DNA of 64,000 bases from the NCBI RefSeq assembly GCF_988243305.1, contig NZ_OZ547136.1. One strand, written 5' to 3'. How positions within the stretch are numbered: the first letter of the stretch is position 1; each line of letters begins with the position of its first letter. Below, piece after piece: positions 24,699 to 52,460 of this stretch. The notes beneath the pieces were generated by a model. That model was not told the origin of the DNA and made no database searches. It saw only the letters and a list, made by a program, of their open reading frames with translations. Position numbers and translations under genes: made by a program.

Positions 24699-25664
24699 AT
24701 GAATACTGTCGGCACGCCGTTGCTATGGGGCGGATTCGCTGTTGTTGTCGCCATTATGCTGGCTATCGACCTGTTGTTGCAGGGGCGTCGTGGGGCACAT
24801 GCCATGACCATGAAACAGGCTGCGGCCTGGTCGCTGGTCTGGGTGACGCTGTCGTTACTGTTTAACGCCGCTTTCTGGTGGTATCTGGTGCAAACCGAAG
24901 GACGCGCCGTTGCCGATCCACAGGCACTGGCCTTTCTCACGGGTTATCTGATTGAGAAATCGCTGGCGGTCGATAACGTCTTTGTCTGGCTGATGTTGTT
25001 CAGCTATTTCTCTGTTCCGGCGGCGTTACAACGGCGCGTGCTGGTGTATGGCGTGCTCGGGGCGATTGTTCTGCGTACCATCATGATCTTCACTGGCAGC
25101 TGGCTGATTTCGCAGTTCGACTGGATCCTGTATATCTTCGGTGCCTTCCTGCTGTTTACCGGCGTGAAGATGGCGCTGGCCCATGAAGATGAATCAGGCA
25201 TTGGCGACAAGCCGCTGGTGCGCTGGCTGCGCGGTCATTTGCGCATGACCGACACCATCGACAACGAGCATTTCTTTGTGCGTAAGAATGGCTTGCTGTA
25301 TGCCACGCCGCTGATGCTGGTGCTGATTCTGGTGGAATTGAGCGACGTGATTTTCGCCGTGGATAGCATTCCGGCTATCTTCGCCGTGACCACTGACCCG
25401 TTCATTGTGCTGACCTCAAACCTGTTTGCGATCCTCGGCCTGCGTGCGATGTATTTCCTGCTGGCGGGCGTAGCAGAACGTTTCTCGATGCTCAAATATG
25501 GCCTGGCGGTGATTCTGGTGTTTATCGGTATCAAGATGCTGATTGTCGACTTCTACCATATTCCAATCGCCGTCTCGCTGGGCGTGGTGTTTGGCATTCT
25601 GGTGATGACGTTTATTATCAACGCCTGGGTGAATTATCAGCATGATAAGCAGCGGGGAGAATGA
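24699..25664 (+). CDS. alx: TerC-family inner membrane protein Alx
   Basis: 321-aa polytopic ORF matching K-12 Alx/YgjT. Confidence 0.9.
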
Positions 25665-25769
25665 TTCGCTGTATATTAAGCCATTACTAGAGATAACTCA
25701 TTCCAGACAAAGGTGAGCTATTAATTATGTAATCGGCTTATAGCTCTTTACAAAAAGACCGCACGGGTG

Positions 25770-25995
25770 TTGGTGGCGTCAAAATCGCCGAAGCGTTCCC
25801 TGGAGGCCGGGGCGACGCGCATGGATGCGCGGCGAGGGCGCATCTTACAGGGACGTTCCCTTGCGCCCGACCCGGTAGCCGCAAGGGATAAGCTGAGGGA
25901 ACCGCGCAGCGGCGATTTTGTTCGCCAGAGCCTGGGGGTGCAGGGGGCGGCGGCGATTGGCCGCCCCCTGCGCGCTCCCTGCGGTAGTGACTTTA
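25770..25995. other. GC-rich structured intergenic element of unknown identity
   Basis: ~68% GC block flanked by AT-rich DNA; long-range inverted repeat ggcgtcaaaatcgccgaagcg / cgcagcggcgattttgttcgcc plus internal hairpins. Confidence 0.3.
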
Positions 25996-26279
25996 TATGG
26001 CATAGCACATTAAAGGAGCGCAACCGTTCTCATATACCAAATAGTTTTGCCCATATGTTATCTAATCAGCCTTAGTAGCCAGTCCTTCCCTCTGTTTATG
26101 TCAAATAAATGTAACCATTAAGTTGCAAAATATGACCTCTCTTTAAAATCCAGCATTTTTCGCTTCCCGAAGCTGTAACTTTCCTTATACTCGACCTTGC
26201 AAACACTTTGTTACATCCTGAAAGATGCGTCGACAGAACGCACCAGGGATGTGCGACAACACAATGAAAGGATCGAAAA

Positions 26280-27524
26280 ATGACTACGCAACGTTCACCG
26301 GGGCTATTCCGGCGTCTGGCTCATGGCAGCCTGGTAAAACAAATCCTGGTCGGCCTTGTTCTGGGGATTCTTCTGGCATGGATCTCAAAACCCGCGGCGG
26401 AAGCTGTTGGTCTGTTAGGTACTTTGTTCGTCGGCGCACTGAAAGCCGTTGCCCCCATCCTGGTGTTGATGCTGGTAATGGCGTCTATTGCTAACCACCA
26501 GCACGGGCAGAAAACCAATATCCGTCCTATTTTGTTCCTCTATCTACTGGGCACCTTCTCTGCTGCTCTGGCCGCAGTAGTCTTCAGCTTTGCCTTCCCT
26601 TCTACCCTGCACTTATCCAGTAGCGCGGGTGATATTTCGCCGCCGTCAGGCATTGTAGAAGTGATGCGCGGGCTGGTAATGAGCATGGTTTCCAACCCCA
26701 TCGACGCGCTGCTGAAAGGTAACTACATCGGGATCCTGGTGTGGGCAATTGGCCTCGGTTTCGCACTGCGTCACGGTAACGAGACCACCAAAAACCTGGT
26801 CAACGATATGTCGAATGCCGTCACCTTTATGGTGAAACTGGTCATTCGCTTCGCACCGATCGGTATTTTTGGTCTGGTTTCTTCTACCCTGGCAACCACC
26901 GGTTTCTCCACACTGTGGGGCTACGCGCAACTGCTGGTCGTGCTGGTTGGCTGTATGCTGCTGGTGGCGCTGGTGGTTAACCCCTTGCTGGTGTGGTGGA
27001 AAATTCGTCGTAACCCGTTCCCGCTGGTGCTGCTGTGCCTGCGCGAAAGCGGCGTGTACGCCTTCTTCACCCGCAGCTCTGCGGCGAACATTCCGGTGAA
27101 TATGGCGCTGTGTGAAAAGCTGAATCTGGATCGCGATACCTATTCCGTTTCTATTCCGCTGGGTGCCACCATCAATATGGCGGGCGCAGCAATCACCATT
27201 ACCGTGTTGACGCTGGCTGCGGTTAATACGCTGGGTATTCCGGTCGATCTGCCCACAGCGCTGCTGTTGAGCGTAGTGGCTTCTCTGTGTGCCTGTGGCG
27301 CATCCGGCGTGGCGGGGGGTTCTCTGCTGCTGATCCCACTGGCCTGTAATATGTTCGGTATTTCGAACGATATCGCCATGCAGGTGGTTGCCGTCGGCTT
27401 TATCATCGGCGTATTGCAGGACTCTTGCGAAACCGCGCTGAACTCTTCAACTGACGTGCTATTCACTGCGGCAGCTTGCCAGGCAGAAGACGATCGTCTG
27501 GCAAATAGCGCCCTGCGTAATTAA
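26280..27524 (+). CDS. sstT: Na+-coupled serine/threonine transporter
   Basis: 414-aa polytopic ORF matching K-12 SstT. Confidence 0.95.
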
Positions 27525-46457: not shown

Positions 46458-48752
46458 TCAGAGCGCCTGGGTAAAGGTACGTGAAATAACATCCTGCTGC
46501 TGTTCACGGGTCAGTGCGTTGAAGCGCACGGCGTAGCCAGAGACACGGATTGTCAGGTTAGGATATTTTTCCGGGTGCTCGATGGCATCCAGCAGCATTT
46601 CCCGATTCATTACGTTGACGTTGAGGTGTTGACCGCCTTCGACATCCGCTTCGTGGTGGAAATACCCATCCAGCAGGCCGACAAGGTTGGTTTTACGTAC
46701 TGGATCTTCTTTGCCCAGCGCCGCAGGCACGATCGAGAAGGTGTACGAGATCCCGTCTTTGGCGTAGGTGAACGGCAGTTTCGCCACCGACGTCAATGAG
46801 GCCACGGCACCTTTGCGGTCACGACCGTGCATCGGGTTAGCGCCCGGTGCGAACGGTGTACCCGCACGACGACCGTCTGGCGTGTTACCGGTTTTCTGGC
46901 CGTACACCACGTTAGAAGTGATAGTCAGAATCGACTGGGTAGGGACGGCGTTGCGATAGGTTGGCAGCGCTTTAATTTTCTTCATAAAGCGTTCAACCAG
47001 GTCGCAGGCAATACTGTCTACGCGCTCGTCGTTGTTGCCGTACTGCGGATATTCACCGTCGATTTCGAAATCCACCGCCAGGCCGTTTTCGTCACGGATT
47101 GGTTTCACGCGGGCATATTTGATAGCAGACAGGGAGTCCGTCGCCACCGACAGGCCCGCGATGCCGCACGCCATGGTGCGATAGACATCACGATCGTGTA
47201 GCGCCATCAGCGAAGCTTCGTAGCTGTACTTGTCGTGCATGTAGTGAATGATATTCAGCGCGCTGATGTACTGCACCGCCAGCCAGTCCATGAAGTGATC
47301 GAGACTGTCCATCACTTTGTCGTAATCCAGCACGTCGTCCATCAGCGGTGCCGTTTTCGGACCGACCTGAATCTTCAGCTTCTCATCCACCCCGCCGTTA
47401 ATTGCGTACAGCAGCGTTTTCGCCAGGTTAGCGCGTGCACCAAAGAACTGCATTTGCTTACCAATCACCATTGGGCTGACGCAGCAGGCAATCGCGTAAT
47501 CGTCGCTGTTGAAGTCAGTACGCATCAGATCGTCGTTTTCATACTGCAAGGAAGAGGTGACGATCGACACCTGCGCGGCATATTTTTTGAAGGCAATCGG
47601 TAATTCTTCCGACCAAAGAATGGTCAGGTTAGGTTCCGGTGCCGGCCCCATAGTGTGCAGGGTGTGCAAATAGCGGAAGGAGTTTTTGGTCACCAGCGTA
47701 CGACCGTCCAGCCCCATCCCGCCGATCACTTCCGTCGCCCAGATTGGGTCGCCGGAGAACAGCGAATCAAATTCCGGTGTACGCAGGAAGCGTACCATAC
47801 GGATCTTCATGATGAAGTGATCGATCAGTTCCTGTGCCTGCTGCTCATTGAGTACGCCAGCTTTAAAGTCGCGCTCAATGTAGATATCGAGGAACGATGC
47901 CGTGCGCCCCAGCGACATCGCGCCGCCATTTTGCGATTTCACTGCCGCCAGATAAGCGAAGTAGAGCCACTGCACCGCTTCCTGTGCATTCTGCGCCGGG
48001 CGAGAGATATCAAAGCCATATTTCGCCGCCATTTCCTGAATCTGCAAAAGCGCATGACGATGCTCTGCCAGCTCCTCACGCAGACGGATAGTGGCTTCCA
48101 GATCCTCGCCTTTTTCCAGACGAGACTGGAGATCGGCAAATTGCAGTTCGCGTTCACGCACCAGATAACTGATGCCATACAGCGCTACGCGGCGATAGTC
48201 ACCGATAATGCGCCCACGACCATAGCCATCTGGTAAACCGGTCAGCACGCCAGATTTACGGCAGCGCAGCATATCCGGTGAGTAAACATCAAATACGCCC
48301 TGGTTATGGGTTTTACGCAGATCGGTAAACAGATATTCAAATTCACTGTCCATTTCACGACCATAGGCGTGGAATGAACTTTTAATCATATTAATGCCAC
48401 CGAACGGGTGTAACGCACGTTTCAACGGCGCATCCGTTTGCAGGCCAACAATTTTTTCCAGCGGCTGGTTAATATATCCCGCATCATGAGCGGTAATGGT
48501 GGTAGCAATATTGGTATCGAAATCAACCGGCGCGTGGGTTGCGTTTTCAATACGAATGCCTTCCATCACCTTTTCCCACAATTCCGTGGTGGCTGGCGTC
48601 GCTTCAGCGAGGAAAGATTCATCGCCTTCATACGGTGTATAGTTATGTTGAATAAAATCGCGGACATTAATTTCGTTTTTCCAGTCCGTACCTTTAAAGC
48701 CAAGCCATGCGTCGGCGTACAGCTTATCGCTGGTATCAATATCTACCTTCAT
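46458..48752 (-). CDS. tdcE: 2-ketobutyrate formate-lyase / pyruvate formate-lyase (glycyl radical enzyme)
   Basis: 764-aa ORF with C-terminal glycyl-radical motif (RVSGYAV). Confidence 0.95.
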
Positions 48753-48785
48753 GAAAAATAATCTCTCTACAATACTTCAACTAAA

Positions 48786-49994
48786 TTATGCAAATTCTGC
48801 GGGCGCGTTCACTTTGCCTAAATGAATGGCATCCAAAGCAATCATTTTTTCTTCGTTGGTTGGGATAACGGCGCAAATGACACGCGCATTTTCACTGGAA
48901 ACAATTCGCTCTCCACAGGAGTTAGAGCGATTATTCATTTCTGTATCAATCTCTACGCCTAATACAGCCAAATGTTCCATGACCAGACGACGAATTAAAC
49001 TTGAATTCTCTCCTATTCCGCCGGTGAATATAATTCCATCCAGGCGACGTAATGAGGCTGCGTGTCCGGCAATATGACGGGCAATTCGGTGAACAAAGGT
49101 TTTAATTGCCAGTTGCGCGCGTTCGTGACCTTCATGCCAGGCTTTTTCCAGAACACGTAAATCCGAAGAAAGACCGGAAATACCTAATAATCCCGACTCT
49201 TTATTCACTACGCGTTCCAGGTCACCCAGGCTCTGGTTGGTTTGGCTGGCGACCCAGGACATCGCACCAAAGTCGACATCACCACTGCGGGTACCCATCA
49301 TCAAGCCTTCCAGCGGCGTCATTCCCATTGAAGTGTCAACACTCTGACCGTTGCGAACTGCGCAGATTGACGCGCCATTGCCAAGATGCGCCACAACCAG
49401 GCCGGAGTCATCTCCCGCCAGATTCAGCAAAGAATGTGCGCGCTGGGAAACATAGCGGTGCGACGTGCCGTGGAAACCATAACGGCGTACACCTAACTCT
49501 TCATAATATTTCCACGGCAGGCCGTATAAATAAGCTTCCGGAGCCATCGTCTGGTGGAAACTGGTATCAAATACCGCCACCTGAGTTACGCCAGGAAATA
49601 ATTGCTGCGCCGATTCAATACCACTTAAATTGGCGTAATTATGCAGGGGTGCCAGTGGAGAAACGCGACGGATATTATCAATGACTTCATCGGTAATAAT
49701 GGCGGACTCGGTAAAAATACTGCCGCCGTGAGCGATGCGGTGGCCAATTAAGGCCACACTGTCATTTAAATTCCGTTTTTCCAGTTCAAATGCAATTGCC
49801 TTCAATGCACCTTCGTAGCTGTGGTGAGCCAGCGGTGCTGGCTCTCCCCCATTTACGGATAAGAATGCATTTTCCGAGTTAATACCGTCGGCAATACCTG
49901 ACATTAATACTTCACAGTCGCTGGCGTCGAGTACGGAAAACTTAATCGAAGACGAACCACAGTTAATAACCAAAACAACCGGAAATTCATTCAT
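48786..49994 (-). CDS. tdcD: propionate kinase
   Basis: 402-aa product from ATG at 49994 ([19 protein letters not shown]...). Confidence 0.9.
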
Positions 49995-50019
49995 CTCTTT
50001 TCTCATCCTGAGTTACGGA

Positions 50020-51354
<1,335 letters not shown>

Positions 51355-51372
51355 CTATCCTCAACGAATTAA

Positions 51373-52362
51373 TTAAGCGTCAACGAAACCGGTGATTTGA
51401 GAGACGCGAGAAAGATCGATATTGCCGCCGGAAATAATACTGACGGTTTTTCTGTTTTGAATATATTGGTCTAATTTACCGCTTAATAATGCAGCACATG
51501 CCAGAGCGCCTGCGCCTTCGGTGACGACTTTATTGCGCTGAATTAAGGCAATCATACTGTTTCTGATTTCATCTTCGCTGACCAGCACGATGTCATCGAC
51601 TAATTCACGAACGATTTCGTAAGTTAAATTACCCGGGCGGGAGACATCACAACCATCCGCCAGGGTGCCGGTAGTTCGGTGCGTGGTTATTTCTCCGGAG
51701 TGGAAAGAAGCCGCCATGCCGTGAACGTTTTCTGACTGTACGCCAATAACACGAATGGTCGGGTTAATAGATTTTATTGCCACCGCAATACCAGCAATTA
51801 AACCGCCACCACCAATTGGCACAATCACGTTATCGACATCATAGAGATCTTCCATAATTTCCAGACCAATCGTTCCCTGGCCAGCAATCACTTTCGGATC
51901 ATCGTAAGGTGGGATAAAAATACGGCCTTCCATTTCGACAATTTCGCTCACTTTAGCGATAGTGTCGTTGAAGTTATCACCATGCAGAACGACTTCTGCG
52001 GAGTAGTCGCACGTTGCCGCTACTTTGGATTTCGGCGCGCCTTTTGGCATCACCACTTTACCGTCGATACCCAGCATCGCGCAGGAGAGCGAAACCCCTT
52101 GCGCATGGTTGCCCGCAGAGCAGGCCACTACACCTTTACGTTTTTCCGCATCGGTCAGTGAACTTAATTTATTAAATGCGCCACGAATTTTAAATGAACC
52201 GGTACGCTGCATGTTTTCGAATTTGAGGAATATTTCACCTTTGCAACGTTCACTAAAATAGTTGGAGCGAGGCATGCCTGTTTTATAAATTCGCCCAGCC
52301 AGTCGTTGTTTAGCTTCAATGATGTCATCAATAGCAACCGGGAGATCGTATGTAATATGCAT
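51373..52362 (-). CDS. tdcB: catabolic threonine dehydratase (PLP)
   Basis: 329-aa ORF with PLP-lysine motif (SFKIRGA). Confidence 0.95.
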
Positions 52363-52460
52363 TATAAAACCTCTTAGCCTGAATTAAATATGTAGGTAAC
52401 CGTAACCGACACCTGCAAAACAGACAGGTGGATTATTTATGTTTAAATAAAAACAAATAA

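What the first reader, a model, noticed from the sequence alone, without database searches (positions are those of the whole stretch)
25770..25995. Unexplained GC-rich, highly structured ~230-bp element in the alx-sstT spacer
The 616-bp same-strand spacer between alx and sstT is unusually long and contains a ~68% GC block abruptly flanked by AT-rich DNA. Within it, ggcgtcaaaatcgccgaagcgttccc (about 25778) pairs with gggaaccgcgcagcggcgattttgttcgcc (about 25900) as a long-range stem enclosing smaller hairpins (cccttgcg...cgcaaggg; gggggcggc...gccgccccc). It does not match REP, ERIC/IRU or boxC consensus as I remember them. Candidate explanations: a structured sRNA or cis-regulatory RNA (sstT leader), or a small non-autonomous mobile element.
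Basis: seen in the sequence. Interest (0 to 1): 0.45.

Follow-up and report, generated by a model that had tools for sequence, protein, structure and literature searches.

The report
Known TRIP1d / RRS repeat copy
The GC-rich structured block between alx and sstT is a copy of an already described E. coli repeat (TRIP1d, of the TRIP1 or "replication risk sequence" family), so the finding is real but not new; its core does look like an orphan RNA motif with two CsrA-type hairpin loops, a link the papers I read do not mention.

Summary
Window 25761-26024 (+) is a 264-bp block of 66% GC between flanks of 34% and 40% GC. It folds far better than shuffled sequence (z = -4).

It is not unexplained. 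Position, length and orientation match "TRIP1d" of Li et al. 2024 exactly: 96 bp after the alx stop and 255 bp before the sstT start. TRIP1 (Rudd 1999) is the same family as the Cox/Goodman "replication risk sequences" (RRS). In those, the G-rich strand forms a G-quadruplex plus hairpins and triggers post-replication gaps.

The window copy carries the exact 20-nt RRS G4 motif at 25934-25953. Here, however, that motif lies on the leading-strand template, the orientation published as weak or inactive.

K-12 lacks this copy. About 29% of complete E. coli genomes have it.

New here:
- 23 enterobacterial copies share one fold. 98.5% of cells are paired and 16 pairs carry compensatory changes. The fold is specific to the G-rich strand.
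- The 166-nt core resembles Rfam TwoAYGGAY at 31-33 bits, below the gathering score of 43.
- Its two hairpin loops are near-matches to the CsrA SELEX consensus.

Verdict: already known, low interest. An RNA or CsrA role is untested.

The parts
25761..26024 (+). Whole TRIP1d repeat unit: 264 bp, 66% GC, member of the TRIP1 / RRS family
   Evidence: It starts 96 bp after the alx stop (25664) and ends 255 bp before the sstT start (26280), exactly as published for TRIP1d. It is 87-90% identical over about 267 bp to copies at aqpZ-lysO, yohP-dusC and efeU-putP. GC.
25768..25933 (+). Core with TwoAYGGAY-like architecture: a long closing stem P1, an inner stem P2 and two hairpins
   Evidence: Rfam RF01731 scores 33.1 bits, E = 0.004, over the full model 1-168, below the gathering score of 43. 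K-12 TRIP1c scores 30.9 bits and TRIP1a 30.6 bits on the same strand.
25770..25801 (+). 5' strands of closing stem P1: 25770-25774, 25782-25787, 25788-25794, 25797-25801
   Evidence: RNAalifold consensus and pair counts on 23 copies. Five pairs in the inner part carry compensatory changes.
25884..25928 (+). 3' strands of closing stem P1 (25884-25888, 25892-25898, 25913-25918, 25924-25928), plus the small hairpin 25902-25905 / 25909-25912
25805..25880 (+). Inner stem P2 (25805-25811 with 25871-25880), which encloses the two hairpins
25813..25834 (+). Hairpin H1 with loop CAUGGAUG (GGA at 25823-25825)
   Evidence: The loop is invariant in 23 copies. This copy's stem differs from the others by three compensatory pairs: GACGCGC/GCGCGGC against AGCCCAC/GTGGGCT.
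25836..25868 (+). Hairpin H2 with loop UUACAGGGACGU (GGA at 25851-25853, 28 nt after the H1 GGA)
   Evidence: The stem is 99% paired with one compensatory pair. The loop matches the CsrA SELEX consensus RUACARGGAUGU at 10 of 12 positions, and the K-12 copies at 11 of 12 (consensus quoted).
25934..25953 (+). G-quadruplex motif GGGGGTGCAGGGGGCGGCGG, identical to the published RRS G4
   Evidence: Exact and unique match in the window, with 0 expected by chance. The motif sequence comes from the RRS paper.
25938..25973 (+). GC hairpin overlapping the G4 motif, with loop GGCGAUUG
   Evidence: Arms are 12/12 complementary. Four pairs carry compensatory changes across copies, for example C-G to A-T twice in APEC O1. 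The loop is conserved.
25974..26019 (+). Helix P6: GCUCCC (25974-25979) pairs with AGGAGC (26014-26019) and sequesters the SD-like GGAG at the 3' end
   Evidence: Three pairs carry compensatory changes. In the diverged asmA-yegH type the helix is GTTCAC/GTGAAC.
25669..26085 (.). Variable cassette of the alx-sstT spacer: the element plus its private flanks. K-12 has a different sequence here.
   Evidence: Alignment with the MG1655 spacer. E. whittamii has an inverted TRIP1 cassette between the same conserved flanks.

Best explanation
**What it is.** This is the TRIP1d copy of the TRIP1 repeat family (Rudd 1999; Li et al. 2024). The Cox and Goodman laboratories call the same family replication risk sequences (RRS).

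**How the family works (shown by others for the lysO and dusC copies).** When the G-rich strand becomes single-stranded during replication, it folds into a G-quadruplex plus extensive hairpins. This blocks DNA polymerases. When that strand is the lagging-strand template, it leaves a post-replication gap of up to about 2 kb that loads SSB and RecA. The repeats also act as substrates for homologous recombination, which causes chromosomal rearrangements.

**Shown here.** The window copy is a full-length family member at the published TRIP1d position. It keeps the exact G4 motif and every conserved helix.

**Inferred here.** At this locus the G4 strand is the + strand. In this replichore that is the leading-strand template. 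TRIP1d is therefore an 'extra' RRS in the weak orientation. It probably causes few or no gaps and is dispensable, since about 70% of E. coli lack it.
For: **Position, length and orientation** equal the published TRIP1d.

**Homology.** It is 87-90% identical over about 267 bp to TRIP1a, TRIP1c and other copies.

**Distribution.** The family is in 5425 of 5426 complete E. coli genomes, 1-5 places each. A copy at least 95% identical to this one is the best match in 1592 of 5434 records (29%), close to the published 23%.

**G4 motif.** It is exact at 25934-25953 and matches the motif in the RRS paper.

**Identity of the two names.** The RRS paper itself states that RRS = TRIP1.

**Conserved fold.**
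- 98.5% of cells are paired.
- 16 pairs have compensatory changes, against 8.7 +/- 1.5 in shuffles (0 of 500 reach 16) and 0-4 in slid controls.
- The fold is specific to the G-rich strand: 123 G-U cells against 8 A-C cells.

**Orientation.**
- Gene order ygjQ-ygjR-alx-sstT-ygjV-uxaA is as on the K-12 + strand at 3.24 Mb.
- Window GC skew is negative overall.
- K-12 RRS-dusC, in the same replichore, carries its G4 on the minus strand and is described as lying on the lagging-strand template.
Against: **No functional data for TRIP1d.** No replication or gap data exist for TRIP1d itself.

**Orientation reduces the known activity.**
- In vivo, inverted RRS gave no RecA/SSB peak.
- In vitro, the leading-template orientation still produced gaps, but less often.

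**Replichore assignment is indirect.** It rests on synteny and a noisy 64-kb skew, not on mapped oriC and dif.

**The G4-only mechanism leaves features unexplained.**
- The two hairpin loops are invariant while their stems covary.
- Several G-U pairs are conserved.
- A diverged family member has lost the canonical G4 motif but keeps all the helices.
Confidence: 0.88

Rival explanations
1. The element acts mainly as RNA. Transcribed from the + strand, as an alx 3' UTR or read-through transcript or from its own promoter, it folds into a TwoAYGGAY-type structure. Its two GGA hairpin loops would bind a CsrA dimer, so it would act as a small CsrA sponge or as a CsrA-dependent RNA element.
For: **Rfam TwoAYGGAY** matches the sense strand of three copies across the full model: 33.1, 30.9 and 30.6 bits.

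**Loop sequences.**
- CAUGGAUG and UACAGGGACGU also occur in Weinberg's Psychromonas seed sequences.
- The same loops occur in true TwoAYGGAY members that score 68-108 bits.
- They match the CsrA SELEX consensus RUACARGGAUGU at 10-11 of 12 positions for H2. The two GGA motifs are 28 nt apart, within the 10-63 nt bridging range.
- The same loop pair forms tandem CsrB-like arrays in Alteromonadales.

**Other points.**
- TwoAYGGAY has already been proposed to bind CsrA.
- The fold is strand-specific, with conserved G-U pairs.
- No terminator lies between the alx stop and the element.
Against: **Rfam scores.** All are below the Rfam gathering score of 43.

**Expression signals.**
- No consensus promoter or terminator was found on the + strand.
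- Orientation relative to neighbouring genes varies among loci and lineages.

**CsrA binding.**
- In the E. coli CsrA CLIP-seq gene table, dusC and ybjE carry 'No' in what appear to be the CLIP columns. The column headers were not read.
- SELEX hairpins have short stems, whereas these are long and very stable.

**Published results.** Every published experimental result for the family is at the DNA level.

**Reciprocal search.** My reciprocal model search was run on loci pre-selected for the loop pattern. It also missed two of the three TwoAYGGAY copies in L064.
Confidence: 0.18
2. It is a small non-autonomous mobile element (MITE-like) that inserted between alx and sstT.
For: - The element is present or absent at this locus in different strains.
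- There are 1-5 dispersed copies per genome.
- Both orientations occur at the same locus in different lineages, each with private flanks.
- A few copies lie on plasmids.
Against: - No terminal inverted repeats or target-site duplications were found.
- 99% of copies lie in only five fixed loci.
- Copy number is very low.
- No partner transposase is known.
- Presence or absence involves replacement of a roughly 420-bp cassette, not a clean insertion.
Confidence: 0.07
3. It is a cis-regulatory leader of sstT or a terminator/stabiliser of alx that belongs to this operon.
For: It lies on the same strand as both genes, in the spacer between them, and is highly structured.
Against: - It is absent from K-12 and most E. 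coli. K-12 keeps the proximal ~195 bp upstream of sstT.
- It ends 255 bp before the sstT start codon.
- Paralogous copies sit beside unrelated genes.
- There is no U-tract terminator.
Confidence: 0.04

Closest known systems
TRIP1 repeats (Rudd 1999; TRIP1a-e of Li et al. 2024, PMC10888264), specifically TRIP1d
   Same: Locus, distances to alx and sstT, 264-bp length, forward orientation, GC content, about 89% identity to TRIP1a, and frequency in E. coli.
   Different: Nothing material. This is that element.
RRS, replication risk sequences at lysO and dusC (Pham et al. 2023, PMC10287960; Pham et al. 2024, PMC10592627; Kusi-Appauh et al. 2026 preprint)
   Same: The same repeat family, with an identical 20-nt G4 motif and the same helices.
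   Different: [quoted passage not shown]
- This copy is at about 3.24 Mb in K-12 coordinates.
- It is strain-variable.
- Its G4 lies on the leading-strand template (inferred).
TwoAYGGAY RNA motif (Rfam RF01731; Weinberg et al. 2010)
   Same: A core of about 165 nt with a very long closing stem, an inner stem and two adjacent hairpins. The loops are AUGGAU and A(C)AGGGAC, and the loop sequences are the same as in seed members.
   Different: - The score is 31-33 bits against a gathering score of 43.
- The element is much more GC-rich.
- It carries an extra G4 hairpin and a 3' helix absent from the Rfam model.
- It has never been shown to be RNA.
CsrA-sequestering sRNAs (CsrB/CsrC/Rsm type)
   Same: GGA sits in hairpin loops that nearly match the SELEX consensus. 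The spacing suits dual-site binding.
   Different: - It has only two strong sites rather than 9-22.
- The stems are long and stable.
- There is no evidence of transcription or of CsrA binding.

Membership tests
TRIP1 (type d) | 264-bp unit, 96 bp downstream of the alx stop and 255 bp upstream of the sstT start, in forward orientation | tested here: met
   alx ends at 25664 and sstT starts at 26280. The homology unit is 25761-26024 on the + strand.
TRIP1 (type d) | High sequence identity to K-12 TRIP1a/TRIP1c (published: 89% to TRIP1a) | tested here: met
   87.3% identity to K-12 TRIP1a (L011) and 87.7% to TRIP1c (L010) over 267-269 bp.
TRIP1 (type d) | GC-rich (62-65%) and able to form a very stable secondary structure | tested here: met
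   GC is 65.9%. The fold is -144.9 kcal/mol, z = -4.0.
RRS (replication risk sequence) | G4-forming motif GGGGGTGCAGGGGGCGGCGG on the sense strand | tested here: met
   Exact match at 25934-25953 on the + strand.
RRS (replication risk sequence) | [quoted passage not shown] | tested here: not met
   The G4 is on the + strand. The + strand has negative GC skew and K-12 + strand gene order in the oriC-to-dif counter-clockwise replichore, so it is the leading-strand template. This is an inference.
RRS (replication risk sequence) | Paired inverted copies about 650 kb on either side of dif, flanking Ter | tested here: not met
   This locus corresponds to K-12 3.24 Mb. The canonical pair lies at 0.915 and 2.229 Mb.
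RRS (replication risk sequence) | Triggers post-replication ssDNA gaps with RecA/SSB loading | not testable with these tools
   Needs ssGap-seq or single-molecule replication assays on a TRIP1d strain.
TwoAYGGAY RNA (RF01731) | Score at or above the Rfam gathering threshold (43 bits) | tested here: not met
   33.1 bits for the window, 30.9 and 30.6 bits for the K-12 copies.
TwoAYGGAY RNA (RF01731) | Two terminal loops carrying AYGGAY, enclosed by a long P1 stem | tested here: inconclusive
   The H1 loop AUGGAU fits. The H2 loop AGGGAC has G at the Y position, but the same variant occurs in a Psychromonas seed sequence. The long P1 is present.
TwoAYGGAY RNA (RF01731) | Expressed as RNA | not testable with these tools
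   No transcriptome data are available here. No consensus promoter or terminator was found.
CsrA-binding sRNA | GGA motifs in hairpin loops matching RUACARGGAUGU, two or more sites 10-63 nt apart | tested here: met
   H2 matches 10 of 12 positions, and 11 of 12 in the K-12 copies. H1 keeps GGA-UG. The GGA motifs are 28 nt apart.
CsrA-binding sRNA | Bound by CsrA in vivo or in vitro | tested here: inconclusive
   In the Potts 2017 supplementary gene table, dusC and ybjE carry 'No' in four columns that appear to be the CLIP categories. The headers were not read, and intergenic peaks could not be checked.
MITE / non-autonomous transposon | Terminal inverted repeats and target-site duplication | tested here: not met
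   No inverted repeat joins the two ends of the element and no flanking direct repeat was found. The flanks of inverted alleles are unrelated.

The most novel reading that the evidence does not exclude
The TRIP1/RRS repeats, currently studied only as DNA elements that trigger replication gaps, may be GC-rich enterobacterial members of the orphan TwoAYGGAY motif. If so, their G-rich strand would act at least partly as a structured RNA, presenting two high-affinity CsrA-type GGA hairpins. The conserved loops would then exist for protein recognition, and the G4 hairpin would be an enterobacterial add-on. A weaker version is that TwoAYGGAY 'RNAs' in other phyla are themselves RRS-like DNA elements.
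Probability: 0.2. Interest if true: 0.7.

Novelty: already known. Interest (0 to 1): 0.2.

Why it matters
For annotation, the matter is simple. This spacer should carry a 'TRIP1d / RRS-family repeat' label rather than 'unexplained'. RefSeq annotates nothing under any copy I inspected.

It also flags this strain as having an extra RRS-type element. That element can recombine with the Ter-flanking copies; TRIP1a/1d rearrangements have been reported. It may also perturb replication weakly.

The wider point comes from the comparison. The family's fold is conserved by compensatory changes and is strand-specific. Its core also matches an orphan Rfam motif whose loops look like CsrA sites. That gives the RRS field a concrete test that separates two functions: mutate the loops or mutate the G4.

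Tried and rejected
**Rfam.**
- No Rfam family reaches its gathering score on the element. The only matches are sub-threshold TwoAYGGAY hits.
- A scan of five paralogous loci (26 kb) at E <= 0.1 returned nothing.

**Other copies.** The window holds no second copy.

**Expression signals.** The promoter and terminator scan found nothing on the + strand between the alx stop and sstT.

**Transposon signatures.** No terminal inverted repeats or target duplications were found.

**Simple inversion.** I tested whether the opposite-orientation alleles arise by inverting the element together with its flanks. The flanks are unrelated; the best local score covers only a 14-nt stretch.

**Small ORF after the SD-like 3' end.** The sequences downstream of AAAGGAGCGCAAC differ between copies. 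In K-12 TRIP1c the putative ORF has only 3 codons. The GGAG is instead paired in a covarying helix. I rejected this idea.

**Reciprocal model search.** A covariance model of the TRIP1 core hit true TwoAYGGAY members at 37.9 and 26.8 bits. I discount this because the loci had been pre-selected on the loop pattern, and because two other TwoAYGGAY copies in L064 were missed.

**CsrA CLIP-seq.** The supplement gave no support.

**Transcripts.** Literature searches for a transcript in the aqpZ-ybjE spacer turned up only an RpoD site assigned to ybjE.

Full report
**1. The observation**

alx is 24699-25664 (+) and sstT is 26280-27524 (+), leaving a 615-bp spacer. Inside it, GC rises to 64-70% and drops to 34-41% on either side.

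The G-rich strand folds at -144.9 kcal/mol, against -122.3 +/- 5.6 for dinucleotide shuffles (z = -4.0). The feature is real and is not a chance effect.

**2. It is a dispersed repeat**

Megablast of 25740-26020 against 5,426 complete E. coli genomes hits 5,425 of them. The median is 3 places per genome, with a range of 1-5.

A copy at least 95% identical to this one is the best match in only about 29% of records. The other records hold paralogues of 80-91% identity.

Those paralogues lie between aqpZ and lysO, between yohP and dusC, and between efeU and putP. RefSeq annotates nothing under them.

K-12 MG1655 has a 398-bp alx-sstT spacer without the element. Window ~25669-26085 is replaced there by a different GC-rich sequence, which I recall as boxC-like but did not verify. 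The proximal ~195 bp upstream of sstT is identical.

**3. Identification**

A literature search found two descriptions of exactly this family.

- **Li et al. 2024 (PMC10888264).** They define five TRIP1 types in 6,725 E. coli genomes. 'TRIP1d' is 264 bp, lies 96 bp downstream of the alx stop and 255 bp upstream of the sstT start, is present in 1,565 genomes, and is always forward. Those distances give 25761-26024 in the window, which matches exactly.
- **Pham et al. (PMC10287960, PMC10592627).** They call the lysO and dusC copies replication risk sequences (RRS) and state that these are Rudd's TRIP1.

The published RRS properties are:
- The G-rich strand carries the G4 motif GGGGGTGCAGGGGGCGGCGG.
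- It blocks Pol I, II and IV in vitro.
- When it is the lagging-strand template, it produces gaps of up to about 2 kb that load RecA and SSB.
- Inverted RRS give no such peak in vivo.
- A 2026 preprint reports gaps at lower frequency in the inverted orientation in vitro.

The window copy has that 20-mer exactly, at 25934-25953 on the + strand.

**4. Orientation at this locus**

The window has K-12 + strand gene order (ygjQ-ygjR-alx-sstT-ygjV-uxaA) and a negative overall GC skew. This fits the replichore that runs counter-clockwise from oriC.

In that replichore, K-12 RRS-dusC carries its G4 on the minus strand and is described as lying on the lagging-strand template. TRIP1d has its G4 on the + strand, which is the leading-strand template.

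I therefore infer that TRIP1d sits in the weak or inactive orientation. This is an inference, not a measurement.

**5. Anatomy and conservation**

I aligned 23 copies: Escherichia coli, E. albertii, E. whittamii, other Escherichia, Pseudocitrobacter and Kluyvera.

- RNAalifold gives 69 pairs.
- 98.5% of cells are paired.
- 16 pairs show compensatory double changes, against 8.7 +/- 1.5 in shuffles (0 of 500 reach 16) and 0-4 when partners are slid by 1-3 columns.
- The sequences are related, so independent events are fewer than cells.

The helices in window coordinates are:
- Closing stem P1: 25770-25801 with 25884-25928
- Inner stem P2: 25805-25811 with 25871-25880
- Hairpin H1: 25813-25834
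- Hairpin H2: 25836-25868
- G4 hairpin: 25938-25973
- Helix P6: 25974-25979 with 26014-26019, which pairs the SD-like GGAG

For the inner half, covariation supports a different pairing.

The fold belongs to the G-rich strand: 123 G-U cells against 8 A-C cells.

**6. An unexpected resemblance**

Rfam's TwoAYGGAY model (RF01731, gathering score 43) aligns end to end with the sense strand. It scores 33.1 bits on the window copy, 30.9 on K-12 TRIP1c and 30.6 on K-12 TRIP1a. This is below threshold, so membership is not established.

The architecture is nevertheless the same: a core of about 165 nt, a very long P1, an inner stem and two hairpins. The loop sequences CAUGGAUG and UACAGGGACGU occur verbatim in Weinberg's Psychromonas seed sequences.

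These loops nearly match the CsrA SELEX consensus RUACARGGAUGU. The two GGA motifs are 28 nt apart, within the dual-site bridging range. TwoAYGGAY has already been proposed to bind CsrA.

The hits fall into these groups:
- true TwoAYGGAY members
- tandem CsrB-like arrays in Alteromonadales
- multi-copy repeats in Pseudomonas and Acinetobacter
- the enterobacterial TRIP1 copies

None of the RRS or TRIP1 papers I read mentions CsrA or Rfam.

Several points argue against an RNA role:
- No promoter or terminator was found.
- Orientation relative to neighbouring genes varies.
- dusC and ybjE carry 'No' in what appear to be the CLIP columns of the E. coli CsrA CLIP-seq gene table. I did not read the column headers.
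- The stems are very stable.
- All experimental evidence so far is at the DNA level.

**7. Verdict**

The element is the known TRIP1d / RRS-family repeat. Novelty is 'already known' and interest is low.

The most novel reading not excluded is that TRIP1/RRS acts at least partly as a TwoAYGGAY-type, CsrA-binding RNA. I put that at about 0.2.

Noticed in passing
L133 2501-2769 (E. coli 2013C-4282, asmA-yegH spacer); L033 8746-9014 (-); L015, L105, L106: A sixth, diverged TRIP1-like type, about 78% identical to TRIP1d, lies between asmA and yegH. A copy at least 95% identical is the best match in 1,377 of 5,423 E. coli records. Its canonical G4 motif is degraded, but every helix is kept by compensatory changes. 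It is not among TRIP1a-e of Li et al. 2024.
   Followed up: partly
L003 vs L007 (yohP-dusC); L011 vs L005 (aqpZ-lysO); window 25670-26096 vs L054 4939-5521 (E. whittamii alx-sstT): At three loci the element lies in opposite orientations in different lineages. The outer flanks are conserved, but the immediate flanks are unrelated. This looks like cassette replacement rather than simple inversion. The reverse-orientation copies at aqpZ-lysO (O157) and yohP-dusC (APEC O1) share sequence features that differ from the K-12 copies at those loci.
   Followed up: partly
L002 1546-1945 (K-12 alx-sstT spacer) vs window 25669-26085: K-12 carries a different GC-rich repeat in place of the TRIP1d cassette. 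It contains GGGAGAGGG...GGGTGAGGG, which I recall as boxC-like but did not verify.
   Followed up: no
L037-L049 (Pseudomonas delhiensis), L109-L117 (P. citronellolis): GC-rich repeats with at least 13 and 9 copies per genome, conserved over at least the ~170 nt inspected. They carry the same two loops (ACAUGGAUGU and UACAGGGACGU) inside nested stems. No Rfam family reaches its gathering score on the three of these loci that were scanned.
   Followed up: partly
L022, L023, L027-L030, L036, L058, L061-L063 and other Acinetobacter loci: Several copies per genome of a hairpin pair with the same loops, followed by a third hairpin. This may be an undescribed sRNA or repeat family. The Acinetobacter loci scanned had no Rfam match at the gathering score.
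   Followed up: no
L031, L032, L055, L057, L059, L087, L088, L120, L129: Tandem arrays of the same two hairpins in Thalassotalea, Alteromonadaceae, Oceanospirillaceae and Pseudoalteromonas. They look like CsrB/Rsm-type sponge RNAs. The four of these loci that were scanned have no Rfam family at the gathering score.
   Followed up: no
L064 456-620 (-), 826-989 (+), 3374-3536 (-): Three bona fide TwoAYGGAY copies (95-108 bits) lie within 3.1 kb, on both strands, in Firmicutes bacterium CAG:882. The motif therefore behaves as a local multi-copy element there.
   Followed up: no
L012 336-372 (K-12, beside TRIP1b): A sub-threshold match to naRNA4 (28 bits, gathering score 59.5), a REP-derived family, lies next to the truncated TRIP1b copy.
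   Followed up: no
window 48001-60000: GC drops to 0.43-0.45, against about 0.52 in the rest of the window. This may be a horizontally acquired segment.
   Followed up: no
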